A stretch of 64,000 nucleotides of DNA, taken from assembly GCA_964450605.1 (NCBI GenBank), contig CAYVEK010000003.1, forward strand, positions 32,778 to 96,777, read 5' to 3'. Origin of the DNA: an uncultured Candidatus Saccharibacteria bacterium. GTDB lineage: Bacteria; Patescibacteriota; Minisyncoccia; Phycocordibacterales; CAIZLB01. The position numbers and the translations under genes are program-made. Positions 31,024 to 58,430 of this stretch are shown piece after piece (positions within the stretch are counted from its first letter, which is position 1; every line of letters begins with the position of its first letter). Under the pieces are notes generated by a model. The model did no database searches, had not been told where the DNA came from, and was given only the letters and a program-made list of their open reading frames with translations.

Positions 31024-31060
31024 TTATATGTATTTAAAGAACAATCGTAACAGTATAATG

Positions 31061-31131
31061 TGCGGGATAAGAGAATCGAACTCTTGTCTACTGCTTGGAA
31101 GGCAGTCATTCTACCACTAAACCAATCCCGC
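31061..31131 (-). tRNA. tRNA-Gly (anticodon UCC).
   Basis: Hand-folded: acceptor GCGGGAT/ATCCCGC, D-arm GTTT-AGTGGTA-GAAT, anticodon stem ACTGC/GCAGT with loop CTTCCAA, T-arm AAGAG-TTCGATT-CTCTT. No encoded CCA. Confidence 0.85.
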
Positions 31132-31169
31132 TTTCTTATTTCAAATCTGGTATAATACTAGCAAAATAT

Positions 31170-32237
31170 ATGCAAATACTCAAGCAGATAAAAGAACATA
31201 TTATAGCCACAGCACTTATACTTATCTGTCTATTTTTTGTATCTTTTATTGCCTCATCGGAGAGGTTTAGAACAAGCCTAAGTACAAATCTTGCAGCAGT
31301 TATTAATAGCAACAAAAAAGGCCAGGGCACCATAGAAGATTATGTATTAAACATATTTTGTACAGAGAGATACAAGACTTACATCAAAGCAGTGAGTGGA
31401 AGTGGAGTTTTTTTATCTGACCCTGACGAAAATACAGGTATTATCCTTACAAACGCCCATGTTGCGAGACATTTGCTCGATGGAAAGAAAAAGTGTGTAG
31501 GCAGAACAGGAAGTCCTGCAGTAACCACTCATAATCTTGTTCTGAGATATATACCGAGCTACTGGCTGGATGAACATAATCAGTATGTTATAGGAGATCC
31601 TGACAAAAGCTCTACTGGAGAATTTGACTTTGCACTTATAGAAGTTAAACGTATAAAAGAAAAAACCGCTTCAAATACAAATATTTACTCAACATTCAGG
31701 CAGAAGCTTCAGGTAAAAGTTAATGACTATAAGCCTAATTATTTTGCAAATATAGATCACTATATCTACTCTTACCCCGCCCAAAAAACACTTTCAGTAT
31801 CTATATACTCCCCTTTGTACAGAAAAAAGGATCGCGTTGAGATCGGTGATATATTCCAAAGTCCTACTCTCAGAACAGAAAACAGTTTACTAGATGCTAT
31901 AGGTTCATCAAATGTAGACCATGGTTCATCAGGAGGTATGATGTTGGCTGTTGATACTTCTTTTTCTTTGGTTGGACTATCAAGTATTTTGATACATGAA
32001 AATAGCCCACAAACGGTCAGAATCGTTACTATGAGACATGTATTTGATGTATTACAAAATGAACTAAAAAACTCTACAGCGCCACAAATAGAAGGCTTTA
32101 AACCGATAATTGCAGATATATTAACAAAAACAAAGATAGACAAAGATATTTACTCAGTATTAAAGAATCAAAAGTTAACAAGTGTACTTGAGAAAAATAC
32201 TCGAGACACACTAGTTAAACTAAACATAATCAAATAA
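31170..32237 (+). CDS. Membrane-anchored trypsin-like (S1 family) serine protease.
   Basis: Catalytic triad in order: ILTNAHV (His), DFALIEV (Asp), GSSGGMM (GxSGG Ser), with an N-terminal TM helix. The start was moved from 31095 to the internal Met at 31170, because 31095 overlaps tRNA-Gly. Confidence 0.7.
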   Translation: MQILKQIKEHIIATALILICLFFVSFIASSERFRTSLSTNLAAVINSNKKGQGTIEDYVLNIFCTERYKTYIKAVSGSGVFLSDPDENTGIILTNAHVARHLLDGKKKCVGRTGSPAVTTHNLVLRYIPSYWLDEHNQYVIGDPDKSSTGEFDFALIEVKRIKEKTASNTNIYSTFRQKLQVKVNDYKPNYFANIDHYIYSYPAQKTLSVSIYSPLYRKKDRVEIGDIFQSPTLRTENSLLDAIGSSNVDHGSSGGMMLAVDTSFSLVGLSSILIHENSPQTVRIVTMRHVFDVLQNELKNSTAPQIEGFKPIIADILTKTKIDKDIYSVLKNQKLTSVLEKNTRDTLVKLNIIK

Positions 32238-32250
32238 TATGAGATGAAAA

Positions 32251-32326
32251 TGGTCGGAGCGCTGGGATTCGAACCCAGAGTCACATCAGCCCAAGTGATG
32301 CATGTTAGCCGTTACACCACGCCCCG
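32251..32326 (-). tRNA. tRNA-Pro (anticodon UGG), with CCA encoded.
   Basis: Hand-folded: acceptor CGGGGCG/CGCTCCG (one G-U pair), anticodon stem CATCA/TGATG with loop CTTGGGC, T-arm CTGGG-TTCGAAT-CCCAG, 3' ACCA. Confidence 0.8.
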
Positions 32327-32354
32327 TTCTGAGAACAATACTACCACAACACCC

Positions 32355-32855
32355 TCAGATTAACAAATTTATATTTTGATAATATTTATGTAGTTTAAAG
32401 CTTTTTTCGGGTTTTTCAGATACCCCTACTCCAAGCCGATCAGAATCTACCACTTTTATAACTATTACTAAATCGATATGGAGATTAAAAAACAGCTTTT
32501 CTGAACAATCTCTTTGAAGCTGTTCAACCAGAAGACTGACAGCACCTGGTCCAAAACGTATGTATTTTGATATCTTGTTTTTTAAACCCAGTGTCTGAAG
32601 GCTTACATACTCATATTCACCAGATCGTATATCACGTGTTTTGACCTCTATAAGTCTTATATCTACCTTGTCCTTATGGATCTTATAGACAATAAGGTCT
32701 ATCTCATACCCCAATCCTTTTACATTTGTTGCAAAAACTTCAAAACCTCTAGATTTCATAAAGTCCAATACAAACAACTCTCCCTTGGTTCCGAGAGTTT
32801 TGTCGGTCAACACCTCCTTTGTATTTGGACGCATATAAGACTTATCCATACCCAA
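32355..32855 (-). CDS. yraN: UPF0102 (YraN) family endonuclease-like protein.
   Basis: GELFVLDFMKSRGFEVFATNVKGLGYEIDLIVYK...IEVKTRD. The true start may be an internal Met. Confidence 0.7.
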   Translation of the reverse strand: MGMDKSYMRPNTKEVLTDKTLGTKGELFVLDFMKSRGFEVFATNVKGLGYEIDLIVYKIHKDKVDIRLIEVKTRDIRSGEYEYVSLQTLGLKNKISKYIRFGPGAVSLLVEQLQRDCSEKLFFNLHIDLVIVIKVVDSDRLGVGVSEKPEKSFKLHKYYQNINLLI

Positions 32856-33050
32856 ATACTAGCAATACAGTGTTAAAGATTATCCAAAGAATTTATAAAG
32901 AATCTATAAAATACTTATAAAATAAGATTAAAAATCTCTATCTCATAGATAAAATCTATAAGTCGTGCTAAATAATGTCTTTTATACACATATCCCCAAA
33001 GTTATCCACATTTTGTCTTATATATCCACCCATCTGTCTCAAAACAATTG

Positions 33051-33121
33051 TGCGGATAGAGAGAATCGAACTCTCGTCTCATCCTTGGCAAGGACGTATT
33101 CTACCACTAAACCATATCCGC
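33051..33121 (-). tRNA. tRNA-Gly (anticodon GCC).
   Basis: Hand-folded: acceptor GCGGATA/TATCCGC, anticodon stem CGTCC/GGATG with loop TTGCCAA, T-arm GAGAG-TTCGATT-CTCTC. Confidence 0.85.
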
Positions 33122-33139
33122 TTTGTCTTTTTGTCTTTG

Positions 33140-33211
33140 TGCACCCACCAGGACTCGAACCCAGAACAACGGTTCCGAAGACCGATGTGATATCCATTTC
33201 ACCATGGGTGC
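33140..33211 (-). tRNA. tRNA-Arg (anticodon UCG).
   Basis: Hand-folded: acceptor GCACCCA/TGGGTGC, D-arm GTGA/TCAC, anticodon loop CTTCGGA, T-loop TTCGAGT. Confidence 0.75.
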
Positions 33212-41105: not shown

Positions 41106-44100
41106 TTGATGCGCCTTGGCTTTTCGTGGTATAATTTTTGTATGGAGATACTAAAAAACGATGGTGGAAATCAAGAATTTACACCTGAACAACAAAAAAT
41201 TGTTGATCAAATAGGAATACTACGCTCAGAAACTAAAAAATTGGAGGAGGAGATAAAAATCCTGGAAGAGAAGGGGGCGACGATACCCCTTACCCCACAA
41301 GACAGGAGTAGACTTGCCTCAAAAAAGCGAGATGTTACAAAGAAACAGCAAGAAATCGCTTTGCTAAAAAAACAATACGATGACTTATATGGCGACAAGG
41401 TTGAAAAACCTGAAATAAAAACTGAAAATACAGAGGATTCTTTGATCGAGGACCTAATAGGACAGGCGAACAGGCTTCTTGGTGAAGGTCTAAGTTTGGA
41501 TGGAAATAAAGCAGAAAGGGCACGAACATTACTTGAAAGAATAGAAAAACAACCCGGCTCCTCAAAATACACAGCGCTCTTGGCAGATTTAAGGATATTG
41601 ACTTCAAATACCCCCGAACCAACACCCTCTCCCGAGAGGGAGGAGGGTGATCCTTCTGGTCCAGAAAAAGGCACTACTGACAATAGGAGTGAGGGCGGAG
41701 ATGTGGGGGCTGAAAAAAACAAACCCTTAAAACCAGAGAAAATCGGTGGCAAGTGGGACACTGGTGATTGGGAAAAAGACCTACATACAATAAAAACAGA
41801 TTTTGAACACAATGAAAAACTAACTTTTACCGAAGGTCTTTGGAAAAAGAAGTTTGGAGGAGATAAACGAGACGGCCTAGAACCAAAAGATACAGACACT
41901 GTGCTTATTCTAGAAGAAAAGATAGTATCAGCAGCGCTTGCGGTTGAGGTTATTAACTACATAATTCCAAAATTGGAAAAAGTCACTCGTCCCAACCATA
42001 CATCTAACTACAAAGAATCCCTTCACGGATGGAGACAATTACGAGAAAAACTAGAAAAAGCAAAACGAAAAAAAGTTGCGGAAAATGTTGAAATAACAAA
42101 TAAAGAAGAATTAGAAAAACTGTCCACATCAATAAAAAGAGTTCTAGAGGGTGTAGACACCGTGACGGCACTTTTTGGCAGAAGAAAATTAATATCTTCA
42201 ACAAAAGAAACATTGGATACACCGTCAACACAAGGATTGTTGGTGGCGTCAACATATTATCTTGAGTGTTTAGAGTTAGCGAATATAAAGGATCAGATAT
42301 TGAAAAAAGACAAACAGGATCATACAAACCTTCTTCAAGACTTAGCAAAACTCCACACAAAACTTTCAGCGCTAGAACCTTTCGACACTGATGCTTTTGA
42401 GAGTGGTGGGGAAGAGTTGAAAGATAAGTTCAACCAACTTAAAGCTAAATTAAAAGAGAAGCAAATTACCGAAGAAGACCTTGGAAAAAGATCATCCGGA
42501 GAAAAACCCCCCAAACCAAAAGGAAGGACAAGCACTGGAACAAAAGATCCTACAACCGGCACCACATCAAAAGATAGTGTGCCTCGAATAAAAACAGCTA
42601 GCGAATTACAAAGTTTCCTGGACGGTAATCATACACTTTCAGAATCTTTGAAAAACACTAAAGATTTGAGAGAGATTGTGTTGAGACTTAAAAACGAAGA
42701 TGTTGCCATCGATGACATTGATAGTAGCACTGTAACACTTATAAATAACGCAAGGTCTCAGATTACTGACCTATATGGTCTTATCCCTATTGGGGAAAGC
42801 GTTAGTGAGAGTAATTTTAATCCAGTAAAAGAATCTATATTGGATCAGTTGGTGCCTATTTGGAATATATTAAACAAAATATCCCTAGATAAGAAGCCTG
42901 AGGCAAAAGCTCTTTTAACTTCAATAAAAAGTTTCTGCAAAAGAATAGGCAAAGATCTACCGTCAAATAAGAAAGAGGTTAAAAATCCAACAGAAGTATT
43001 TGAAAGTAATATAACAGATAAAAACTCTCCATTTATAACAAAGCTTGTTAGATTTTTAAAAAAAACAAAGCGAGTATTGGAATTTGGCCATGGTGCCAAA
43101 CCCGACACAGTAGAACTACAAAAAATGGAAAAAGAAATTCCGGATGATCTCAATGAAGATAAAAAGAAAATTATCAGAGATGTTGTGTGTACCGCTGTAC
43201 AAGAACTACTTACCAGTGTGACAGATGCTTCATGTAAACAAACACTCATAGAGATATCTATAAAACTAGATATAGAGGTACCAAAACCTGAAGAAAAAGA
43301 AAAACCATTGTACACAGTAAAATCTGTTGGAGAATACAAATTCTCTAACAAAGAATCCTTTGTTAGAGAATTAAAAAAGGGTGATAAATCAGAGTATTTG
43401 GTTGATGTTAAAATCTTATTGGTACACCTACTAGACCAAATAAAACACAAAGTTGTCAGCAATGAGGATGCTCAGACATGGAAAAATATCCATAAATCTA
43501 TACCAATAGGTTGTGAGCCTGCTGATTATAGCCCCTTAACCAACATACTCACCGATAGTAATCAAATACAAGAAGCAATATCATTAATTCCTTCTTCAGA
43601 AAAAGAACCTCTTCTCGGATTGCGTAAGGCTCTTGTAAGCATTTGTGTTGTTTTAAAAATAGAAGTACCTAAAGAAACCCCCGACCCCGTCGACACTCCT
43701 GAGATCCGAACAATTCAAGCAACACTTCGAAGGGAAGATATCATTACAGGTGGAACATTTAAACCGGAATACGAAAGAAAGGCTCCAGGTTTTAAACATT
43801 ATGTTGAAGGTGTCTATGTAAAAAGAATACAAGACAGTTGCTTTGAGAGCGATCTTCCTGATTCATACAAAAAAAGCATTGATGAGTTATTCGCCTTATA
43901 TGAACCTCATGCAAAAACTATCAATGATTTGTCTAAAGCGTTAGAAGTCGAGGATGTTGTAAATAGTGATTTATACAATGATTTTTTGCACGATATGGAC
44001 ATGTCTCCCGATACAACACATCCAGTATTAAGACAGGAACTCATCAATAACATAGTTATGTCAGTACTTTGTGGAACATACGAAACCGTCTATAAAGATT

Positions 44101-45539
44101 CAGTAGAAAGCATTATACATGGGGCACAAAAAATAACTGGGGCACGAGAAAAAATAAAAAGTCTAGAATCAAAACTAGAAGCAGAGCAAGCCCGATTAGA
44201 CACCTTAACCGACCCAGCAAGAGAACTAACTGAAGCTGAGTACAATACCGCCCTTACAACTGTTGAATTTCCAGATGTTGAAAATGATATGGATACATTC
44301 TTGGAAAGAATTCATTCTGAATACGAAACATTACGAGGTGGTATGAAAAGTGATGGAATAGGCTTTGCCACATCTTTCTATAAAAGATGGGCCCAAAGAG
44401 TTGAGGACGTTGAAAATGTTGAAGGAAAAATCAACGAAGCTGAAAAACAAAAAACAGTACTTGAAGAAGCTATATCAACGACCCAAGAAAGTATTGATGG
44501 TGCAAGAACTATGGGCCACACAGACACAGTAGAAGTACTTACAAAAAAGTTAAAAAAACTACAAAAGCTTTTAAAGAAACAGCAAAAAGCAGCCTCAAAG
44601 GAGATCAAGCCTCTCGGCCTCTTGGGAAGAATAAGAAATAAAACACTCGCGTATTTTGGTAGTATGGAGACATCTGACTATGTTGAAGTAAACAAACTGC
44701 AAAGCAAACTGACAATACTTAGAGATAATAGACTTCTACCTGAGGGTGAGCCTTACACAACAAAAGAAACCGCAGAATCAAACTGGAAAAAACTTAATGA
44801 ATATATTGATGCAAGAAGGACTGGCAAGCTAGATACATTGGATGCTGAAACCAAAAGATACGCTGAACCTATATACAATAACCTGTTCCAGAGTTTTGCT
44901 CGAGACAAATATTCATTTAACAGTGCTGACAACAGACAAACCGTAAAAGAAAAAATAATAGAAAACCAGGAGAGTGTTGTAGAAGACTTATCTGATGAAT
45001 TATCACAAGAAAATGAAAAGGTGCTTGATGCCAGATCAAGAGTAATAAACCCTCTTGATCGAAGCTCTATAGCATCAGAGCAGATGGCCGAAGTACTAAA
45101 ATCAAAAGATATTGATTCATACATATCAGAACTTGGAGATGATAAGGACACCATAACTGCAAACAAAATCAGAACAATACTAACGAAAGGAGAGAATATG
45201 TTTAGAAGAGGATCTGCTTATGGACCCCTACAACAAAAAATAGAAAAAGCAGCGATAACAACAGTGGGTACAATTCGAAGATATTTAGAATCCAAAAGGC
45301 TGTTTGAGTCTGCCGAGAATACGATTCTAAAACTAAAAGTTATTCTTGTATTCTCACTAGAACAAGCTATAAGATCTGAGCTTGTAACAAAAGCAAAGAA
45401 AAAAGAGGTACTTGATCAATTTGAGAAAATTCTTGGAGAATATAGAAAGGATTTTGTGAAAAAAGGAGACAGATACTCTATATCAGAGACAGATAGTTTG
45501 CTTCGAGAAATAGAAAACATGAAAACACGAATAATATAA
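41106..45539 (+). CDS. Giant (1477 aa) K/E-rich coiled-coil protein of unknown function.
   Basis: Continuous ORF with no TM helix, signal peptide or P-loop, and long heptad-like K/E/L-rich stretches. The start may be the internal Met at 41142 (MEILKNDGG...). Confidence 0.65.
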   Translation: MMRLGFSWYNFCMEILKNDGGNQEFTPEQQKIVDQIGILRSETKKLEEEIKILEEKGATIPLTPQDRSRLASKKRDVTKKQQEIALLKKQYDDLYGDKVEKPEIKTENTEDSLIEDLIGQANRLLGEGLSLDGNKAERARTLLERIEKQPGSSKYTALLADLRILTSNTPEPTPSPEREEGDPSGPEKGTTDNRSEGGDVGAEKNKPLKPEKIGGKWDTGDWEKDLHTIKTDFEHNEKLTFTEGLWKKKFGGDKRDGLEPKDTDTVLILEEKIVSAALAVEVINYIIPKLEKVTRPNHTSNYKESLHGWRQLREKLEKAKRKKVAENVEITNKEELEKLSTSIKRVLEGVDTVTALFGRRKLISSTKETLDTPSTQGLLVASTYYLECLELANIKDQILKKDKQDHTNLLQDLAKLHTKLSALEPFDTDAFESGGEELKDKFNQLKAKLKEKQITEEDLGKRSSGEKPPKPKGRTSTGTKDPTTGTTSKDSVPRIKTASELQSFLDGNHTLSESLKNTKDLREIVLRLKNEDVAIDDIDSSTVTLINNARSQITDLYGLIPIGESVSESNFNPVKESILDQLVPIWNILNKISLDKKPEAKALLTSIKSFCKRIGKDLPSNKKEVKNPTEVFESNITDKNSPFITKLVRFLKKTKRVLEFGHGAKPDTVELQKMEKEIPDDLNEDKKKIIRDVVCTAVQELLTSVTDASCKQTLIEISIKLDIEVPKPEEKEKPLYTVKSVGEYKFSNKESFVRELKKGDKSEYLVDVKILLVHLLDQIKHKVVSNEDAQTWKNIHKSIPIGCEPADYSPLTNILTDSNQIQEAISLIPSSEKEPLLGLRKALVSICVVLKIEVPKETPDPVDTPEIRTIQATLRREDIITGGTFKPEYERKAPGFKHYVEGVYVKRIQDSCFESDLPDSYKKSIDELFALYEPHAKTINDLSKALEVEDVVNSDLYNDFLHDMDMSPDTTHPVLRQELINNIVMSVLCGTYETVYKDSVESIIHGAQKITGAREKIKSLESKLEAEQARLDTLTDPARELTEAEYNTALTTVEFPDVENDMDTFLERIHSEYETLRGGMKSDGIGFATSFYKRWAQRVEDVENVEGKINEAEKQKTVLEEAISTTQESIDGARTMGHTDTVEVLTKKLKKLQKLLKKQQKAASKEIKPLGLLGRIRNKTLAYFGSMETSDYVEVNKLQSKLTILRDNRLLPEGEPYTTKETAESNWKKLNEYIDARRTGKLDTLDAETKRYAEPIYNNLFQSFARDKYSFNSADNRQTVKEKIIENQESVVEDLSDELSQENEKVLDARSRVINPLDRSSIASEQMAEVLKSKDIDSYISELGDDKDTITANKIRTILTKGENMFRRGSAYGPLQQKIEKAAITTVGTIRRYLESKRLFESAENTILKLKVILVFSLEQAIRSELVTKAKKKEVLDQFEKILGEYRKDFVKKGDRYSISETDSLLREIENMKTRII

Positions 45540-51231: not shown

Positions 51232-54200
51232 ATGAATATCTCTGGAGTAAAAAAAATATTTTCTCGTGTTGGTGTTTTGTTGTTTTTAATTTCTTTCTTG
51301 TGTTTGGGTTTTTTACCAAATAAAACAATTGCTCTACAAGATAAAACTGATGCAGGTTTTAAAGGGGAAGCTGTGACAACGGTTGATAGATATGAATTAG
51401 CAAACACTCCAACAAGCTTTATACAGAGCGGATTAACTGTAAAAGTTGTTAGCCCTGTGGTGAACGAAATCAGTCGGACATCAATAACAGGATCGACTAA
51501 CCCTCCAACATATTCTGTATCAAATACATACAGTCTGAGAAGAGATTATAATATAACAAAAGGCCCTATAGATGCCCAAACTCAAAAAAATCTTACATCA
51601 GGACAACTGAGTGCCATACAGGCAGCAGTTAAAGATAAGTACACTATAACAAAAGACAATGTCTTTGCCATCAACACACCTGATTCAACCAACTACTACA
51701 TAAAAGTTCAAAACCCAGCAGCAAAAGGTGGTTATGATAAATACTTGATAATGTCTGCTGTTGGAGATAATTTGTACATACCAGAAGAAAAAATAAAAGA
51801 ACTACCAACCTCAACAAAAGATGACATAGGGGCAACGGATGTAAAAAGAGAAGATGGATTTCTTAATATGATTGGTGCTCGGGAGGGTTTGCAGCCAGGA
51901 ACATTAGCATCACAGATTAGAGGAAATGATGCGACAAATGCCCAGATAGGTAACCTGACACAACAAAAAGAAGATCTTGAAAAACAGATTCGATCGGTCG
52001 AGGATGAGATAGATAATCTAAAAGCAAAACAAGACGCAGGAACACTGACGGCACAAGAGCAGCAGAGACTGGATGAGCTTGAAGGAAAGAGAAGCGGTCT
52101 TTTGTCTGAATTAGATATTGTAAATAAAAACAAACTTCAAACCACCGCCCTTTCAAACTCAGATGAAATCTCTATAGAAGAGTGTAAGGGTTTATTTGGT
52201 TGGGCAACCCTTAAATGTGCAGTACAAGCCATATCGGTACTTGCAAACATTGGACTAAAACTTGTTTCTTACGGACTAGGTCTCGTAGGAGTGATGTTTG
52301 ACTATTCTATAGAGCTCGCTGTAAACTCTGCGGAGTTTATAGAAAAGCTGGGAGTAGTAAATCCTGTTTGGACTCTACTTAGAGATCTCTTAAACATGAC
52401 CTTTATTTTTATACTGGTCTGGATAGCCATACAGATAATAATTGATAGAAAAAGATACACAATAAAAAAAGATGTTGTTCGTGTTGTTGTAGTTGCGATA
52501 CTTATGAACTTCAGTTTGTTTGTTGCCAAAGTTTTTGTTGATGGGTCAAACCTTGCAACACTACAACTCTATCAAGCAACAAAGAGTAGTGGAGTGGTGG
52601 CTGATCATGCAAATATTTCATATAGAATAATGAACACTCTCGGGTTTCAGACCATCTATAGTATTGGAGACATCTTCGCAAATGGTAACCTAACAAAAAC
52701 AATACTTGGTTGTGGTGGGGCAAATGGAACCATTATCAGTGTTGCTGTTTTTGGTTCTATATTTATGATTATTTTAAGTCTTGCGTTTTTGGCTGTAGGA
52801 TTATTATTCTTTGTTCGAATGGCAAATATAATATACTTGTTTGTAACATCACCTTTGTGGGTTTGGGGATACATACTTGATAATGAATTTTTCTCAAAGA
52901 TTAGAAACGATTGGTGGAAAAAAATGAAACATGTTGTAAAGTTTCCAGTCACATTCATGCTCTTTATGTTTGTGGCAGTATTCGCTTTCACAAAAATGTT
53001 CGCGCTTAGTTATGGAGGACTATCATTTCTAACCCTATTCTGTGTAAGTGATCAACCAACTATTATAGGCCAACTACCTTTGATACTAAACTTCTGTCTT
53101 GTTATCTGGGTAATACTTGCTGCGGTTAAAAAAGGCATGGAAGACAGTGAGGGCGGTATAGAAAAAGCAATCACAGGAAAGTTTGGTGGCTGGGCCCAGG
53201 CGGCTTCAACAGGTTTGGCAAGAAAAATGGGAGACAAGGCAAAACAAATACCTTATGCTGCTGGACAGGTTGGAAAAATAGCCTTTAATGGTGCCGGTAA
53301 CTTCAAAAGATTATCTGAGAAATATCCAACATTTGGAAATTTAAGTGGCTTTAAGGCATTAAATAAACTAGGATCAAAAATAGCATCTAATTCAAATTCT
53401 CCAGCATGGCTTAGAAACATGGGGGCAGGCTTAGCAAACAAAACCAAAGATCCAAAGTTCTTTGGAAAAACAACAGATGAGTGGAGAAAGAAAAGAAAAG
53501 AGTGGTGGGCCAGTGATGGTGAAAAAGATGCGGCCAGAACCGCTGAGGTTGCAGAAAGCGCAAAGAAAGCTCCTAAGTATCAAGAAAAAGGTCATGAACA
53601 GGAGAGTAGAAATCAGTTTGAAGAGCGTGTAAAAGCATTTGCTAAAGCAAAAGCGAGAATATATCTTGATCAAAACATATTAAATGTTGCAGACCCGACC
53701 AACAGCAACAAATCACATGAAGAAGGTATTATAGAGAACGCTTTGGCTGGAATTGAAGAGATAAAAGATGCAAACGGAAATGTGACAGGTCACCGATTCA
53801 ACGAGGAAAAAATGCGAAAGCATATCAACAATGTATATGAAGCCCATACAGAAAAAGGTCGTCTAAAATCTGTTGCAAGACATACAAAATCTCGATTCAT
53901 GTCTAAAGCAAAGTTTGAGGCCCGAGAAAAGGCATTTAAAGCTGCAACAGAAGCACGATACAAGTCTGTTCAAACATTGGAAAAATTACGAGACGATCTC
54001 AAAAAATCTGAGGATGACTTTAAAAACCATCCTGAAACACTGGCTGATTTAGAGACAAGAATACAAAATAAAGACCCTAAACTCAAAGGGGTTGTAAGTA
54101 TTGCGGCTATAGGTTCTTTAGAGAGAGATATCGCGAAACTTCAAACAAATATTGCATATATACAACACGCAGTGCAAACAACAGGTTCTCACCCAGATGA

Positions 54201-54348
54201 AGATAAAATAGATAAATACACAGAAGAAATAGAAAAGAAAGAAAAGAGGCTAGAAAGTATCAAGAAAGGAGCTCTACAAAACCGCGAAAAAATACAAAAG
54301 AAAATCGAAGAGTTAAAAGAAAAGATTAAAGAACAAGAAAAGAAATAA
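51232..54348 (+). CDS. VirB6/TrbL-like polytopic membrane protein (1038 aa) with a K/E-rich C-terminal tail.
   Basis: Signal peptide, an extracytoplasmic domain of about 300 aa, five to seven TM helices (residues ~330-640) and then about 400 aa of charged coiled-coil. This is the architecture of VirB6/TrbL/PrgH-type channel components. The call rests on topology and context only. Confidence 0.5.
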   Translation: MNISGVKKIFSRVGVLLFLISFLCLGFLPNKTIALQDKTDAGFKGEAVTTVDRYELANTPTSFIQSGLTVKVVSPVVNEISRTSITGSTNPPTYSVSNTYSLRRDYNITKGPIDAQTQKNLTSGQLSAIQAAVKDKYTITKDNVFAINTPDSTNYYIKVQNPAAKGGYDKYLIMSAVGDNLYIPEEKIKELPTSTKDDIGATDVKREDGFLNMIGAREGLQPGTLASQIRGNDATNAQIGNLTQQKEDLEKQIRSVEDEIDNLKAKQDAGTLTAQEQQRLDELEGKRSGLLSELDIVNKNKLQTTALSNSDEISIEECKGLFGWATLKCAVQAISVLANIGLKLVSYGLGLVGVMFDYSIELAVNSAEFIEKLGVVNPVWTLLRDLLNMTFIFILVWIAIQIIIDRKRYTIKKDVVRVVVVAILMNFSLFVAKVFVDGSNLATLQLYQATKSSGVVADHANISYRIMNTLGFQTIYSIGDIFANGNLTKTILGCGGANGTIISVAVFGSIFMIILSLAFLAVGLLFFVRMANIIYLFVTSPLWVWGYILDNEFFSKIRNDWWKKMKHVVKFPVTFMLFMFVAVFAFTKMFALSYGGLSFLTLFCVSDQPTIIGQLPLILNFCLVIWVILAAVKKGMEDSEGGIEKAITGKFGGWAQAASTGLARKMGDKAKQIPYAAGQVGKIAFNGAGNFKRLSEKYPTFGNLSGFKALNKLGSKIASNSNSPAWLRNMGAGLANKTKDPKFFGKTTDEWRKKRKEWWASDGEKDAARTAEVAESAKKAPKYQEKGHEQESRNQFEERVKAFAKAKARIYLDQNILNVADPTNSNKSHEEGIIENALAGIEEIKDANGNVTGHRFNEEKMRKHINNVYEAHTEKGRLKSVARHTKSRFMSKAKFEAREKAFKAATEARYKSVQTLEKLRDDLKKSEDDFKNHPETLADLETRIQNKDPKLKGVVSIAAIGSLERDIAKLQTNIAYIQHAVQTTGSHPDEDKIDKYTEEIEKKEKRLESIKKGALQNREKIQKKIEELKEKIKEQEKK

Positions 54349-55258: not shown

Positions 55259-55705
55259 ATGCGATATGAAGTACCACAGTTTATAGAGTTTGAGAGTAAG
55301 ATTGTTGGACCACTAACATTTAAGCAATTTGCCTATATCCTTGGAGCCGCTGGGGGAACATATATCATATACAGACTACTAGGCCTATTTCCTGGAATCA
55401 TTGTTATAATTCCTTTTTGGGTGCTAAGTTTTGCCTTGGCTTTTATTAGAGTAAACGATCGCCCTTTTGTGGATACTATTTCTGCTGCCTTTTCATTTGT
55501 TTTTGGAAACAAGCTATATGTTTGGAAAAAAATAGACAGACCCATAAAAAGCTCTGTTGGAGATGGATCAATAAAATCTTCAGCTGACGAGCTAACAGCT
55601 CCCACACTTTCTCAGAGTAAACTTAAAGAATTGGCTTGGGGTTTGGATATAAAACAGAACGTCTTCTCGGGACAATCACTCCTTGATAAAACAGAGAAAC
55701 ACTGA
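55259..55705 (+). CDS. VirB3/PrgI-like small membrane protein.
   Basis: 148 aa with PLTFKQFAYILGAAGGTYIIY and GIIVIIPFWVLSFALAFI forming a two-helix hairpin typical of VirB3/PrgI. It lies immediately upstream of VirB4, as VirB3 does in T4SS loci. Confidence 0.45.
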   Translation: MRYEVPQFIEFESKIVGPLTFKQFAYILGAAGGTYIIYRLLGLFPGIIVIIPFWVLSFALAFIRVNDRPFVDTISAAFSFVFGNKLYVWKKIDRPIKSSVGDGSIKSSADELTAPTLSQSKLKELAWGLDIKQNVFSGQSLLDKTEKH

Positions 55706-55730
55706 TATACATATACTTGTTGGTCTGTAT

Positions 55731-55802
55731 GGCGATTATAGTTTAGTGGTAAAACCCAGGTTTGTGGATCCTGTGTCGAGAGTTCGATTCTCTCTAATCG
55801 CC
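55731..55802 (+). tRNA. tRNA-His (anticodon GUG) with an encoded G-1 opposite C73.
   Basis: Hand-folded: extra 5' G, then acceptor GCGATTA/TAATCGC, D-arm GTTT/AAAC, anticodon loop TTGTGGA, T-arm GAGAG-TTCGATT-CTCTC, discriminator C. Confidence 0.85.
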
Positions 55803-55806
55803 CAAT
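55785..55806 (+). repeat. Direct repeat, copy 1 (the 3' end of tRNA-His): cgattctctctaatcgcccaat.
   Basis: An identical 22-mer occurs again at 55919-55940. Confidence 0.8.
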
Positions 55807-55918
55807 GTAACACAAGGAAAGCATATTATGCTTTCCTTAGAGAATCGAAAGGCTTTTGAGTATATTTTGAGCACTTTGTGCGAAAAATATCCAAAAGGCG
55901 TACTGGTCCTGTAAGGAC

Positions 55919-55940
55919 CGATTCTCTCTAATCGCCCAAT
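55919..55940 (+). repeat. Direct repeat, copy 2: a duplicated tRNA-His 3'-end 22-mer, att-site-like.
   Basis: Identical to 55785-55806. It is preceded by a ggtcctgtaaggacc hairpin, and the intervening 112 bp also contain the aaggaaagcata/tatgctttcctt hairpin. Confidence 0.8.
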
Positions 55941-55982
55941 TGGTTTATACATTTTGTATTATTTCAACATTCTCGGTATACT

Positions 55983-56609
55983 TTGTGTATGGCTTTTAAT
56001 GCATCTCAAGAATTTGTACCCATACAAGAAGTTAGGGAAGGTGTTCTTATATTGAAAGATGGTTCTATGCGAGCGGTTGTTTTGGCTTCTTCTATAAACT
56101 TTGCACTAAAGTCTATAGAGGAACAAGAGTCTGTTATTTATCAGTTTCAAAACTTCATAAACTCACTGGATTTCACTATACAGATATACATACAATCAAG
56201 AAAACTAGATATTCGACCTTATATAGCACTCCTAGATGATAGACTTAAGGCTCAAACAAGTGATCTTATGAAAATGCAGATCACGGAGTATATGAACTTT
56301 ATAAAAGGATTAACTGAGATTTCAAGCATTATGACAAAAAGCTTCTTTGTTGTGATTCCGTATGGAGGATCCACAAAAGAAACAAAGTTAAGTGATATTT
56401 TAAAAAGAAAAGATGAATCAAAAGAGGAAAAGAGTAGAGATGATGAGTTTGAGGAAGTAAAGAGTCAGATAGAACAACGAGTTTCTGTTGTTGAACAAGG
56501 GCTTGCACGTTGTGGAGTTAAAGTTGCTCGACTTGGAAGTGAAGAACTTGTTGAGTTGTTTTATAGAATTTTCAATCCCGGAGATGCAGAAAAACCAATA
56601 AAGATGTAG
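55983..56609 (+). CDS. VirB4-family ATPase, N-terminal domain, separated from the ATPase domain by an in-frame TAG.
   Basis: PIQEVREGVLILKDGSMRAVVLASSINFALKSIEEQESVIYQFQNFINSLDFTIQIYIQS matches the VirB4/TraC N-terminal pattern. It is in the same frame as 56619-58430, with a single TAG at 56607-56609. Confidence 0.6.
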   Translation: MCMAFNASQEFVPIQEVREGVLILKDGSMRAVVLASSINFALKSIEEQESVIYQFQNFINSLDFTIQIYIQSRKLDIRPYIALLDDRLKAQTSDLMKMQITEYMNFIKGLTEISSIMTKSFFVVIPYGGSTKETKLSDILKRKDESKEEKSRDDEFEEVKSQIEQRVSVVEQGLARCGVKVARLGSEELVELFYRIFNPGDAEKPIKM

Positions 56610-56618
56610 TATATATAC

Positions 56619-58430
56619 ATGGGATTTTTTGATTTCTTAAAACCAAAAACTAAACAGGTAACAAAAATAACATCTGTACTACCTCGAGATATTTACAGAT
56701 CTTCTGTTTTAGAACTAAAAGACATCATTGCTCCATCAGCATTAAAGATAACCCCAAAAACTCTAAACCTGGGAGAGAAACTTGTTCGAAGTTTTTTTGT
56801 AATGTCATACCCAAAGTATCTCTCAGACAGTTGGTTTTCTCCTATCATAAACCTCGATAAAGCCTTTGATATATCTATCTTTGTTCACCCCATAGACACA
56901 GCAACTATACTCCACGAGTTTGAAAAAAAAGTAACAGAGGCACAGAGCCAGATACAAGAGAGAGAAGAGAAGGGATTAGTTCGAGACCCTAAACTTGAAG
57001 CCTCATACCAAAACCTCGAAAACCTTCGAGATAACCTGCAACAAGCCCAGGAAAAGATGTTTGATGTTGGTATCTATATATCAGTTTATGGAGATAGCGA
57101 GGATGAACTCAACCGTATAGAATCAGAGATCAAGAGTACACTTGAAGCGTCTCTGGTATTTATAAAACCTTCACTCTTTCAACAAGAACAAGGTTTTAAA
57201 AGCGCTATTCCTGTTTCAACAGATGAGATGCAGATAAACTCAAAACTAAACTCTGCACCGCTATCTAGTATATTTCCTTTTATTTCTTTTGACCTTACCT
57301 CAGACAAAGGTATTCTCTATGGAATAAACAAACACAACAGCAGTCTTGTTTTGTTTGATAGATTTTCTCTTGAAAACTACAACTCTGTAACCTTTGCCAA
57401 AGCCGGAGCAGGAAAGTCCTATGCCACAAAACTTGAGATACTACGATCTTTGATGTTTGATATAGACGTTATTGTCCTTGACCCTGAGAGGGAGTATGAG
57501 TACCTAGCAGAAACAACAGGTGGTAGATATTTTAATATTTCTCTTACATCTGAAAACCATATAAATCCTTTTGATCTACCAACTCCACGGGAAGACGAAT
57601 CACCTGCTGATGTTCTTAGATCACACATCATAAATCTTGTAGGACTGTTTAGAATCATGTTGGGAGGCCTTACACAAGAAGAAGATGCTATCATTGACAG
57701 AGCTATCACAGAGACATATGCTCTCAAAGACATAACACCTGAGTCAAACTTTGCAGCGGTTGAACCTCCACTTATGTCTGATTTTGAGCTTGTACTTGCC
57801 GGTATGGAAGGAGGAGACTCTTTGGTACAACGACTTACAAAATATACAAAAGGAACTTGGGCTGGTTTTATAGACAAACCTTCAAACCTAGATATAAACA
57901 AGAAGTTTGTTGTATTTTCTCTACGAGACATGGAAGATGAGCTTAAACCAGTGGCTATGTACATAGTTATGCATTATATATGGAACGCTGTTCGAAAGGA
58001 GCTTAAAAAGCGTCTTTTGGTTATAGATGAGGCGTGGTGGATGATGAAATCAGAAGATACAGCTTCTTTCTTGTATGGTTTGGCAAAACGAGGTCGAAAA
58101 TACTACCTAGGAATGTCCACAATCACACAAGACGTTGAAGACTTTCTTAAATCACCTTATGGACTACCTATCATCACAAACTCATCTATGCAGTTCATGA
58201 TGAAACAGTCTCCTTCGTCTATAGATATGGTTCAGAGAACATTTAACCTTACAGATGAGGAAAAATACCTCCTTCTTGAATCGGCGGTGGGGGAAGGTAT
58301 CTTTTTCGCTGGAACAAAACATGTTGCTTTGCAGGTAGTGTCCTCAGAAACAGAGAGCAGGATCATAACATCCGACCCTGCACAGATACTAAAAATGAAA
58401 GAAGAGAAGAAAACTTGGTTAAGAAATTAA
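56619..58430 (+). CDS. virB4: VirB4/TrbE/CagE-family type IV secretion ATPase (C-terminal ATPase portion).
   Basis: Walker A FAKAGAGKSYATK, VLDPEREYEYL...GGRYFNIS...INPFDL, Walker B LLVIDEAWWMM and AKRGRKYYLGMSTITQDVED (the RK.G...TQ motif). Confidence 0.85.
   Translation: MGFFDFLKPKTKQVTKITSVLPRDIYRSSVLELKDIIAPSALKITPKTLNLGEKLVRSFFVMSYPKYLSDSWFSPIINLDKAFDISIFVHPIDTATILHEFEKKVTEAQSQIQEREEKGLVRDPKLEASYQNLENLRDNLQQAQEKMFDVGIYISVYGDSEDELNRIESEIKSTLEASLVFIKPSLFQQEQGFKSAIPVSTDEMQINSKLNSAPLSSIFPFISFDLTSDKGILYGINKHNSSLVLFDRFSLENYNSVTFAKAGAGKSYATKLEILRSLMFDIDVIVLDPEREYEYLAETTGGRYFNISLTSENHINPFDLPTPREDESPADVLRSHIINLVGLFRIMLGGLTQEEDAIIDRAITETYALKDITPESNFAAVEPPLMSDFELVLAGMEGGDSLVQRLTKYTKGTWAGFIDKPSNLDINKKFVVFSLRDMEDELKPVAMYIVMHYIWNAVRKELKKRLLVIDEAWWMMKSEDTASFLYGLAKRGRKYYLGMSTITQDVEDFLKSPYGLPIITNSSMQFMMKQSPSSIDMVQRTFNLTDEEKYLLLESAVGEGIFFAGTKHVALQVVSSETESRIITSDPAQILKMKEEKKTWLRN

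What the first reader, a model, noticed from the sequence alone, without database searches (positions are those of the whole stretch)
55731..55940. tRNA-His embedded inside the T4SS-like locus, with a 22-bp duplicate of its 3' end 113 bp downstream (att-site footprint).
The 22-mer cgattctctctaatcgcccaat covers the tRNA-His 3' end (55785-55806) and recurs exactly at 55919-55940. The 112-bp interval holds two strong hairpins, aaggaaagcata/tatgctttcctt and ggtcctgtaaggacc.

A tRNA 3'-end duplication is the classic scar of tyrosine-integrase-mediated insertion or excision of a genomic island, forming attL/attR. The tRNA also splits the VirB3-like gene from VirB4, which are normally contiguous or fused. 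So the VirB4-to-60633 half of the locus may have arrived, or been rearranged, by site-specific integration at tRNA-His. Alternatively the short interval is a remnant left after an element excised.
Basis: seen in the sequence. Interest (0 to 1): 0.7.

Follow-up and report, generated by a model that had tools for sequence, protein, structure and literature searches.

The report
Small structured element inserted behind tRNA-His
The repeated 22 bases are not the scar of a lost genomic island but the right-hand end of a complete 134-base non-coding folded element, one member of a previously undescribed family that sits behind many different tRNA genes in Patescibacteria and always carries sense and antisense copies of its own tRNA's 3' end.

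Summary
tRNA-His(GTG) lies at 55732-55803, and the 22-mer is exact at 55785-55806 and 55919-55940 (0 expected by chance).

PrgI->VirB4N->VirB4C is adjacent in about 75 relatives that lack the tRNA, so no half of the locus arrived by integration.

The 112-nt "interval" plus the second repeat is itself a complete element: hairpin H1, then a three-way junction (P1/P2/P3). P1 pairs an antisense of the tRNA T-loop/T-stem with the first 9 nt of the repeat.

A metagenome scan and a covariance model found 56 distinct copies. 32 lie 60 nt or less behind tRNAs of 20 isoacceptor types, and each carries a copy of that tRNA's own T-loop-to-discriminator segment.

- Covariation is very strong (89.9% paired; 28 of 38 pairs changed on both sides).
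- Orthologous sites are empty or occupied, and tandem arrays and multi-copy contigs occur.
- The acceptor part of the second copy decays with age.
- Rfam 15 and the searchable literature have no match.

Best model (inferred): a protein-less miniature integrative element, moved in trans through a self-complementary single-stranded intermediate, with att equal to the tRNA 3' segment.

The parts
55259..55705 (+). PrgI-family (VirB3-like) gene, upstream neighbour
   Evidence: Pfam PF12666 PrgI, E 3.3e-07. It is directly followed by VirB4N in relatives without the tRNA.
55731..55803 (+). tRNA-His(GTG) including the encoded G-1; no CCA encoded
   Evidence: ARAGORN; Rfam tRNA 64.3 bits. At this position only in the clade with VirB4C identity of 84% or more.
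55785..55806 (+). R1: first copy of the 22-mer (T-loop C56 to discriminator, plus 3 nt)
55807..55940 (+). The inserted unit (134 nt): spacer + H1 + P1/P2/P3 + R2. Equivalently 55785-55918 if the crossover is placed in the T-loop.
   Evidence: Absent from the empty sites in L081/L082/L085, and the flank after R2 matches the empty-site trailer. The covariance model hits 55817-55931 at 107.2 bits, E 1.9e-22.
55814..55838 (+). H1 hairpin (11 bp; family core GAAAGC/GCTTTC at 55817-55822 and 55830-55835)
   Evidence: Fold. H1 is paired in 98% of alignment cells and its upper pairs covary. It covaries fully in copies found only by the model.
55839..55847 (+). P1 5' strand, AGAGAATCG: antisense of the tRNA T-loop/T-stem 3' strand ('anti-T')
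   Evidence: Pairs with 55919-55927. Across the family this strand follows each neighbouring tRNA's T-arm.
55852..55899 (+). P2 long hairpin with a conserved internal loop (UUGAG / CGAA)
   Evidence: 14 of its 15 scored pairs change on both sides.
55900..55905 (+). Conserved linker GTACTG between P2 and P3
   Evidence: T, A and C of the linker and its final G are invariant in 37 sequences; the first G varies (G/A) and the fifth base is T in 33 of 37.
55905..55919 (+). P3 hairpin ggtcc-tgtaa-ggacc with the invariant CUGUAAG motif
   Evidence: 100% of cells paired, 3 pairs covary. L086 has gctgc/gcagc.
55919..55940 (+). R2: second copy of the 22-mer. 55919-55927 is the P1 3' strand; 55928-55940 is the copy of the acceptor 3' strand, discriminator and 3 more nt.
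55989..56609 (+). VirB4 N-terminal-domain gene (TraC-like), downstream neighbour; ATG at 55989 preceded by a conserved tatact
   Evidence: The split of VirB4 into two genes (N, and C at 56619-58430) is the norm in this lineage.

Best explanation
The second 22-mer is the terminal, target-derived repeat of a 134-nt non-coding element inserted at the 3' end of tRNA-His. The element belongs to a family found behind many tRNA genes in Patescibacteria.

Shown:
- Every full copy has the order: tRNA (ending in R1) - trailer with an intrinsic-terminator hairpin - antisense of the trailer and acceptor 3' strand - H1 - antisense of the T-stem 3' strand and T-loop - P2 - P3 - R2, a direct copy of the T-loop-to-discriminator segment.
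- The fold is conserved by covariation.
- The tRNA-derived parts match whichever tRNA is next door.
- Orthologous sites are either occupied or precisely empty.
- Copies multiply within genomes and as tandem arrays.
- The acceptor part of R2 decays while the P1 part is kept.

Inferred:
- The unit exists as a small, self-complementary single-stranded (probably circular) intermediate. In it, R pairs with its two antisense segments, so the central duplex is a copy of the target site.
- A recombinase supplied in trans crosses it over with the tRNA gene inside the T-loop (Campbell-type). The element-borne R1 then completes the tRNA, and the original 3' end (R2) is displaced downstream.
- Where the element still cycles, both copies must serve as a working tRNA 3' end, which keeps them identical.
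- The window's copy has lost the terminator and anti-acceptor module by deletion.
For: - Fold: the window's element alone folds into H1 plus the three-way junction at -48 kcal/mol, z -8.1. On 37 family members, 89.9% of cells are paired against 35-54% when partners are slid, 28 of 38 pairs change on both sides, and 0 of 500 shuffles reach the observed values.
- tRNA link: 32 of 56 distinct elements lie 60 nt or less behind a same-strand tRNA, covering 20 isoacceptors; my estimate from the density of tRNA genes in these loci is that chance would give about 0.6%.
- Copies of the tRNA's own end: R2 matches its own tRNA for up to 21-23 nt. Identity to R1 is 0.90 in the T-stem, 0.70 in the acceptor, and 0.36 in the trailer.
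- Antisense strands are complements, not copies. L102 has ATTTGAA against T-loop TTCAAAT. L094 has GCAGG against the tRNA's GTAGG. L001 has GCGGCTA against GCGACTA.
- The anti-acceptor occurs only at tRNAs that carry an element.
- Insertion relation: empty L085 against occupied L101 gives 45 of 51 matches after R2.
- Site-to-site variation: the element follows different tRNAs of the same syntenic clusters in different genomes, and the window's own Arg-Gly-Pro-Gly cluster is empty.
- Multiplication: three copies in 4 kb in L114, and tandem arrays in L091, L094 and L102. The P2 variant is genome-specific across different tRNAs.
- Repeats track their own tRNA: the window and L087 each have R2 identical to R1, although their R sequences differ at 3 positions and VirB4C is only about 81% identical at the nucleotide level.
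- Circle prediction: one unit folded as a circle is 75-83% paired for most full-length copies, -60 to -97 kcal/mol, z -9 to -16. The observed order is what a crossover in R would produce.
- Precedent: CTXphi's attP(+) forms by intrastrand pairing of two inverted att copies about 90 nt apart and uses host recombinases (PMC4246890).
Against: - No circular or excised form, and no transcript, has been seen. Everything rests on assembled DNA.
- No recombinase, reverse transcriptase or other partner gene is linked to the copies.
- A crossover fixed in the T-loop does not explain how both antisense segments become perfect complements of a new tRNA while P2 stays genome-specific. Some templated copying step is missing from the model.
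- The window's copy lacks the anti-acceptor and terminator module, yet has a perfect R2. That is odd for a fossil.
- G.U pairs greatly outnumber A.C mismatches in the long hairpins (15 to 1). This shows selection on the sense strand, which fits an RNA role as well as a sense-strand ssDNA form.
- The family was sampled with a pattern that required GAAAGC, GCTTTC and CTGTAAG, so its true range and contexts are under-sampled.
Confidence: 0.5

Rival explanations
1. A cis-encoded functional RNA module of tRNA genes, not a mobile element. Read-through past the tRNA terminator produces a structured RNA. Its antisense strands can pair either with the tRNA's own 3' half or with the decoy copy R2. This would act as a processing, insulating or regulatory device for the tRNA or the downstream gene. 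R2 and the antisense strands would be kept matched to the tRNA by selection and local gene conversion, and copies would be homogenised within genomes like other multi-copy RNA genes.
For: - Strong covariation in every helix.
- Invariant loop and linker motifs, CUGUAAG in full and the TAC and final G of the GUACUG linker, suggest a binding site or tertiary contact.
- G.U pairs outnumber A.C mismatches 15 to 1 in the long hairpins and 55 to 34 in the core.
- A second subfamily with the same H1-P2-P3 core stands alone without tRNA-derived helices.
- The full transcript of the window region folds with either copy closing the tRNA.
- Several tRNAs in one cluster each have a copy.
Against: - The acceptor half of R2 is a perfect copy in 12 of 34 cases and decayed in the rest. 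That is the pattern of a by-product of insertion, not of a functional part.
- Precise empty sites occur in sister genomes, and different tRNAs are occupied in the same syntenic cluster.
- A canonical terminator sits between the tRNA and the element in most copies, so co-transcription would be the exception.
- Two different P2 subtypes are stacked behind one tRNA in L094.
Confidence: 0.3
2. A retro-element variant of the mobile model. The element spreads through an RNA intermediate copied by a reverse transcriptase supplied in trans, for example the diversity-generating-retroelement RTs common in these bacteria. R2 would derive from a tRNA molecule.
For: - R2 is followed by CCA in about half of the intact or near-intact copies, where the gene's own end has CAA, CCG, CTA or CAG. 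Only 11 of 49 element-free tRNA genes encode CCA.
- The repeat starts in the T-loop, where modified bases stop reverse transcriptases (my own knowledge of retroviral primer-binding-site copying).
- G.U tolerance on the sense strand.
- A bAvd gene lies next to the rearranged copy in L086.
Against: - Several intact R2 copies, including the window's, lack CCA and instead share post-discriminator genomic bases with R1 (window AAT, L115 AAG).
- The anti-acceptor strand is complementary to the genomic trailer, not to CCA.
- No RT gene is linked to the copies.
Confidence: 0.1
3. One reading: a classic tyrosine-integrase att scar. A genomic island, possibly the VirB4 half of the locus, integrated at tRNA-His or excised from it, leaving a short remnant between attL and attR.
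For: A direct repeat running from the T-loop to the tRNA 3' end is the textbook att core of tRNA-integrating islands (general knowledge).
Against: - Gene order on both sides is conserved in about 75 relatives without the tRNA.
- No integrase or other plausible ORF lies in or beside the interval.
- The interval is a conserved folded element also found behind 19 other tRNA isoacceptors.
- No further copy of the 22-mer exists in 64 kb.
Confidence: 0.03
4. A local accident: slippage or unequal crossing-over duplicated the tRNA 3' end once in this lineage, and the hairpins are incidental.
For: Unequal exchange between R copies clearly does happen, as shown by the tandem arrays in L102, L091 and L094.
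Against: The same architecture recurs at 20 tRNA isoacceptors with conserved H1, P2 and P3 and matched antisense strands.
Confidence: 0.02

Closest known systems
tRNA-integrating genomic islands and prophages (tyrosine integrase; attL/attR made of the tRNA 3' segment)
   Same: A direct repeat from the T-loop to the tRNA 3' end flanks inserted DNA. The upstream copy completes a working tRNA and the displaced copy is free to decay. Orthologous sites are occupied or empty.
   Different: The insert is 112-170 nt, has no integrase and no ORF, and has a conserved fold. One family uses at least 20 different tRNAs. It carries antisense copies of the target as well.
Integrative mobile elements exploiting Xer (CTXphi type) and integron attC sites: recombination sites formed by folded single-stranded DNA
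   Same: Two inverted copies of the attachment sequence, separated by about 70-90 nt, pair within one strand to rebuild a duplex that mimics the chromosomal target. No recombinase of their own is needed (PMC4246890).
   Different: The target here is a tRNA gene, not dif or attI. The mimic is specific to each tRNA. The element is about 150 nt with no cargo. Dependence on a recombinase is untested.
MITEs and other miniature non-autonomous bacterial repeats
   Same: Small, non-coding, multi-copy, insertion-polymorphic, with paired ends.
   Different: MITEs have fixed terminal inverted repeats and 2-10 bp target duplications (PMC11602168). Here the paired ends are copied from the target, the duplication is about 21 nt with its ends set by tRNA landmarks, and the internal helices covary.
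Guide-carrying mobile RNAs (group II intron EBS/IBS pairing; IS110 bridge RNA)
   Same: An internal segment of each copy is complementary to its own flanking target and changes with the target.
   Different: There is no ribozyme domain and no recombinase gene. Rfam finds nothing. Group II introns are reported absent from Patescibacteria (PMC13011429). Those elements do not duplicate about 21 nt of target.
tRNA mimics and tRNA-neighbouring RNAs (tmRNA tRNA-like domain, viral tRNA-like structures, GOLLD/ROOL)
   Same: In young copies, P1 plus the anti-acceptor/R2 helix reproduces the acceptor/T-stem stack of the neighbouring tRNA. GOLLD and ROOL also tend to lie near tRNAs (PMC5737381).
   Different: No free CCA end is conserved, the acceptor helix with R2 decays, and ARAGORN sees no tRNA or tmRNA there. 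There is no sequence or structure match to GOLLD or ROOL, which are several times larger.

Membership tests
Tyrosine-integrase island at a tRNA gene (attL/attR) | Direct repeat of the tRNA 3' segment (from the T-loop or anticodon loop to the 3' end) flanking the insert | tested here: met
   22 nt exact, from C56 to discriminator +3.
Tyrosine-integrase island at a tRNA gene (attL/attR) | Integrase gene inside the element, next to one att site | tested here: not met
   Only 112 nt lie between the repeats, with no plausible ORF. The neighbours are PrgI-like and VirB4N.
Tyrosine-integrase island at a tRNA gene (attL/attR) | One element family is tied to one tRNA target | tested here: not met
   20 isoacceptors are used by one family.
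MITE | Short target-site duplication (2-10 bp) | tested here: not met
   The duplication is about 21-22 nt, bounded by the T-loop and the discriminator. MITE definition from PMC11602168.
MITE | Family-wide conserved terminal inverted repeats | tested here: not met
   The paired ends (P1) differ in each copy and equal the local tRNA's T-arm.
MITE | Small, non-coding, multi-copy, insertion-polymorphic | tested here: met
Folded-ssDNA attachment site (IMEX/CTXphi, integron attC) | Two inverted copies of the att sequence that pair within one strand to mimic the target duplex | tested here: met
   Anti-T and anti-acceptor pair with R. The circular fold of one unit is 75-83% paired for most full-length copies.
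Folded-ssDNA attachment site (IMEX/CTXphi, integron attC) | Integration at dif or attI by XerCD or IntI | tested here: not met
   The target is a tRNA gene. Which recombinase acts, if any, is not testable with these tools.
Any Rfam 15 family (ribozymes, introns, riboswitches, tmRNA, SRP, GOLLD/ROOL and others) | Covariance-model match at or near the gathering score | tested here: not met
   Four permissive scans of the window, L001, L086, L087, L089, L131 and L135 found only tRNA. The best other hit was purD at 24.9 bits against a gathering score of 41.
tRNA / tmRNA / tRNA-like gene | Cloverleaf or tRNA-like domain with a free acceptor end | tested here: not met
   ARAGORN finds nothing at 55807-55940. 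The acceptor helix with R2 is lost in most copies.
Group I intron in a Patescibacteria tRNA | Group I core inside the tRNA (reported at 35/36 in the anticodon loop) | tested here: not met
   No Intron_gpI hit. The element lies after an intact tRNA. Insertion position from PMC13011429.
Intrinsic terminator of the tRNA | GC-rich hairpin followed by a T-run directly after the tRNA | tested here: inconclusive
   Most family members have one between the tRNA and H1. The window's copy does not: the scan flags only P3 followed by ATTCTCTCTA.

The most novel reading that the evidence does not exclude
A protein-less mobile element of about 150 nt that retargets to any tRNA gene. It would carry, around a conserved folded core, both a sense and an antisense copy of that tRNA's T-loop-to-acceptor 3' segment. 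It would travel as a rod-shaped single-stranded circle (DNA or RNA) whose central duplex is a replica of its target. New specificities would arise by templated copying of the target rather than by mutation of a guide.
Probability: 0.3. Interest if true: 0.9.

Novelty: new variant of a known kind. Interest (0 to 1): 0.75.

Why it matters
If the model holds, these reduced-genome bacteria host a very small integrative element that needs no gene of its own and recognises its target through a built-in replica of that target. That would be a new way for selfish or regulatory DNA to home to tRNA genes.

There are practical consequences whichever model is right:
- Orphan tRNA 3' fragments are widely used to call genomic islands and att sites. 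In Patescibacteria many of them will be these elements, so island predictions there need this filter.
- The family supplies a well-supported new structured-element class (38 base pairs, strong covariation) for RNA databases.
- It raises a testable question about how tRNA genes, their terminators and downstream genes are expressed in organisms that cannot yet be grown alone.

Tried and rejected
- Known RNA families: four permissive Rfam scans found nothing. By eye I also considered hammerhead, twister, pistol and hatchet cores, group I and group II intron parts, tmRNA, SRP RNA, RNase P RNA, T-box, box C/D-like guides and permuted or split tRNAs. None fits.
- H1 as an anticodon arm: it fits in L122 only, so I treat it as chance.
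- Alternative genetic code as the cause of the VirB4 split: rejected, because ORFs of 1477 and 1038 aa read in table 11, and the two-gene form is the norm in the clade.
- Phage origin: four pattern scans of viral contigs found nothing.
- Partner protein: ORFs next to the stand-alone subfamily are unrelated; judged from their sequences alone, without a family search, two look like a ribonucleotide-reductase beta chain and an HtpX-type peptidase, and the rest are unknown.
- P1 5' strand as a copy of the tRNA's T-stem 5' strand plus T-loop (a duplicated T-arm split by an insertion): rejected, because it is the complement of the T-loop and of wobble-paired stems.
- R2 as a copy of mature tRNA: not supported overall. 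CCA is present in only about half of the intact copies, and the window's copy shares genomic trailer bases.
- The extended acceptor/terminator hairpin as a general feature of tRNA genes: rejected, because it occurs only where the element is present.
- Looking up the window's own contig through P0001 failed.
- Seven literature searches found no description. The group I intron paper on Patescibacteria tRNAs concerns position 35/36 and is a different feature.

Full report
**1. The observation**

ARAGORN places tRNA-His(GTG) at 55732-55803 on the + strand, and Rfam's tRNA model scores 64.3 bits. The 22-mer CGATTCTCTCTAATCGCCCAAT is exact at 55785-55806 and 55919-55940, and none was found in 100 shuffles. 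It begins at C56 of the T-loop and ends 3 nt after the discriminator.

**2. Context**

The window is chromosomal DNA of a Patescibacteria (Paceibacteria/Parcubacteria-type) bacterium.
- It carries UvrD, KsgA, YidC and RnpA, plus a PrgI / VirB4 / T4SS-pilin-like cluster.
- The closest VirB4C proteins come from Parcubacteria and Patescibacteria MAGs.
- VirB4 as two genes (about 206 aa and about 603 aa) is normal in this lineage.

Of 80 related loci from reference genomes, only the three closest (L001-L003) have a tRNA between PrgI and VirB4N. In the others the two genes are adjacent, mostly 0-30 nt apart. So tRNA-His was inserted into an old operon in one small clade, and neither half of the locus arrived at the tRNA.

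**3. Close relatives**

Contigs encoding VirB4C at 94-97% amino-acid identity (only 80-85% at the nucleotide level) fall into two classes.
- L081, L082, L084, L085, L002 and L003 have the tRNA followed by a short trailer and nothing else.
- The window, L001, L086-L090 and the metagenome contig L101 carry a homologous insert of 130-170 nt.

The match between the second copy and that genome's own tRNA end is 22 nt (window), 21 nt (L087/L088), 12 (L090), 9 (L089), 8 (L086) and 6 (L001). L087's repeat reads ...TAGCCGCCCCA and the window's reads ...TAATCGCCCAAT. Each repeat therefore follows its own tRNA at three differing positions.

The flank after the second copy is homologous to the trailer of the empty sites (L085 against L101: 45 of 51 matches). 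The flank after the first copy is not. On a VirB4C tree the window groups with empty-site genomes.

**4. The insert is a folded element**

Seven copies from the T4SS locus already gave a consensus of H1 plus a three-way junction, with 12 compensated pairs. For example, P3 is ggtcc/ggacc in the window and gctgc/gcagc in L086. P1 pairs AGAGAATCG (55839-55847) with the first 9 nt of the second 22-mer. The window's element alone folds this way at -48 kcal/mol, z -8.1.

**5. A family**

One metagenome scan, with a pattern that left P1 free, returned 45 loci. On an alignment of 37 members, the hand-drawn structure (H1, P1, P2 lower and upper, P3; 38 pairs) gave these figures:
- 89.9% of cells paired, against 35-54% when partners are slid by 1-3 columns.
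- 28 pairs changed on both sides.
- 0 of 500 shuffles reached any observed measure.

A covariance model built from the alignment finds one copy in the window (107 bits). It finds none beside the window's other four tRNAs, one in 725 kb of T4SS loci, and many extra copies in the metagenome loci.

Of 56 distinct elements, 32 lie 60 nt or less behind a same-strand tRNA of 20 different isoacceptors. Rfam 15 has no match, and seven literature searches found no description.

**6. Architecture**

Each element ends in a copy (R2) of its own tRNA's T-loop-to-discriminator segment, up to 21-23 nt exact. Identity to the tRNA (R1) is 0.74 in the T-loop, 0.90 in the T-stem and 0.70 in the acceptor plus discriminator (12 of 34 intact). 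It drops to 0.36 in the trailer.

The P1 5' strand is the reverse complement of the T-loop plus T-stem 3' strand. It is a complement, not a copy. L102 has ATTTGAA against TTCAAAT, and L094 has GCAGG where the tRNA's own 5' strand is GTAGG.

In most copies the tRNA trailer contains a canonical terminator (A-tract, GC stem, T-tract). The stem then continues outward: an antisense of the trailer and of the acceptor 3' strand, including the discriminator, leads straight into H1. These hairpins reach -48 kcal/mol. This anti-acceptor segment is found only at tRNAs that carry the element (the three apparent exceptions have elements).

So R is present three times: direct, inverted (split by H1 exactly at the acceptor/T-stem boundary), and direct. 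The window's copy lacks the terminator and anti-acceptor part, with only 13 nt between the tRNA and H1. Its nearest relative, L101, has both.

**7. Dynamics**

- The same syntenic tRNA clusters are occupied after different tRNAs in different genomes, and are empty in the window.
- L114 has three copies in 4 kb and L127 has three. L091, L094 and L102 have tandem arrays.
- Copies within one contig share a genome-specific P2 variant although they follow different tRNAs. Copies at the same tRNA in other genomes differ.
- In L094, two different P2 subtypes sit behind one tRNA, and both carry that tRNA's antisense strand.
- G.U pairs outnumber A.C mismatches 15 to 1 in the long hairpins and 55 to 34 in the core. 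The sense strand is therefore the one selected to fold.

**8. Mechanism (inference)**

The order R1 - hairpin - anti-acceptor - H1 - anti-T - P2 - P3 - R2 is what one crossover inside R would give, between a tRNA gene and a small circle carrying R and its two antisense segments. Folded as a circle, one unit is 75-83% paired for most full-length copies, at -60 to -97 kcal/mol and z -9 to -16. R forms one continuous duplex, H1 branches off, the terminator forms one tip and P2/P3 the other.

A single strand that folds to rebuild its target duplex and borrows host recombinases has a precedent in CTXphi (PMC4246890). On this reading R1 is element-borne and completes the tRNA. R2 is the displaced original end, kept identical while the element still cycles and decaying afterwards, except for the part held in P1.

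Not explained:
- How both antisense strands are rewritten for a new tRNA.
- Which enzyme acts.
- Why R2 is followed by CCA in about half of the intact copies when the gene's own end is not.

The main rival is a functional read-through RNA whose parts are kept matched by selection and gene conversion. The two readings are not exclusive.

**9. Verdict**

But the "footprint" is the element itself, the T4SS genes are bystanders, and the feature opens onto an apparently undescribed family of structured elements associated with tRNAs.

Limits: all evidence comes from assembled DNA, sampling was biased by the search pattern, and the contigs are assigned to Patescibacteria from record names, synteny and contig sizes rather than by a phylogeny.

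Noticed in passing
window 55989-56609 and 56619-58430: VirB4 is encoded as two genes, an N-terminal TraC-like domain of about 206 aa and a P-loop part of 603 aa, separated by TAA plus 9 nt. The same split occurs in essentially all relatives. VirB4C is very conserved (94-97% amino-acid identity) while VirB4N and PrgI diverge fast (about 50% and 66-75%).
   Followed up: partly
L092, L105, L108, L112, L122, L128, L130, L133, L135: A second subfamily has the same H1-P2-P3 core, preceded by GGTGA and followed by GCAAGACCTTG. It has no tRNA-derived P1 and no upstream tRNA. Three copies have a tRNA 12-51 nt downstream instead. In L112 a 12-nt direct repeat (tRNA-Met leader plus its first 7 nt) flanks the element. 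In L122 the upstream flank looks like the 5' part of a tRNA (acceptor plus D-arm).
   Followed up: partly
L086 1-2100: In this relative the body of tRNA-His and the PrgI side of the operon are replaced by other DNA. That DNA includes a bAvd-family gene (an accessory gene of diversity-generating retroelements, 89-334) and a minus-strand ORF. The tRNA's last bases, the trailer and the element remain, so a rearrangement breakpoint lies inside the tRNA.
   Followed up: no
L104, L112, L114, L126, L101, L113, L127 (second copies): The three bases after the discriminator of R2 are CCA, while the tRNA gene's own end has CAA, CCG, CTA or CAG. Only 11 of 49 element-free tRNA genes in these contigs encode CCA.
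   Followed up: partly
window 55706-55731 and 55977-55991: Conserved tgatatacatatac lies just upstream of the tRNA, overlapping the PrgI stop codon. Conserved (g)tatact lies about 6 nt before the VirB4N ATG in all relatives, occupied or empty. These may be -10 boxes, implying separate promoters and a nearly leaderless VirB4N mRNA. The simple sigma-70 scan did not flag them.
   Followed up: no
L003 3296-3385: In the most basal tRNA-bearing relative, the VirB4N ATG directly abuts the 3' end of tRNA-His (gccgcccATGttaat), with no spacer at all.
   Followed up: no
window 55732-55803 compared with L001, L002, L003, L085: The tRNA-His of relatives has an A4.C69 mismatch in the acceptor stem (gcgacta / tagccgc). 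The window has repaired it by three changes (gcgatta / taatcgc). L085 shows an intermediate form (gcggtta / taatcgc). The window's second copy carries the repaired version too.
   Followed up: partly
window 41106-45539 and 51232-54348: Two very large ORFs (1477 and 1038 aa) in or beside the T4SS-like cluster have no Pfam domain above threshold.
   Followed up: no
window 31060-33211: The tRNA cluster Arg(TCG)-Gly(GCC)-Pro(TGG)-Gly(TCC) is syntenic with clusters in L104, L111, L114, L117 and L127. Those carry one to three elements, while the window's cluster is empty.
   Followed up: yes
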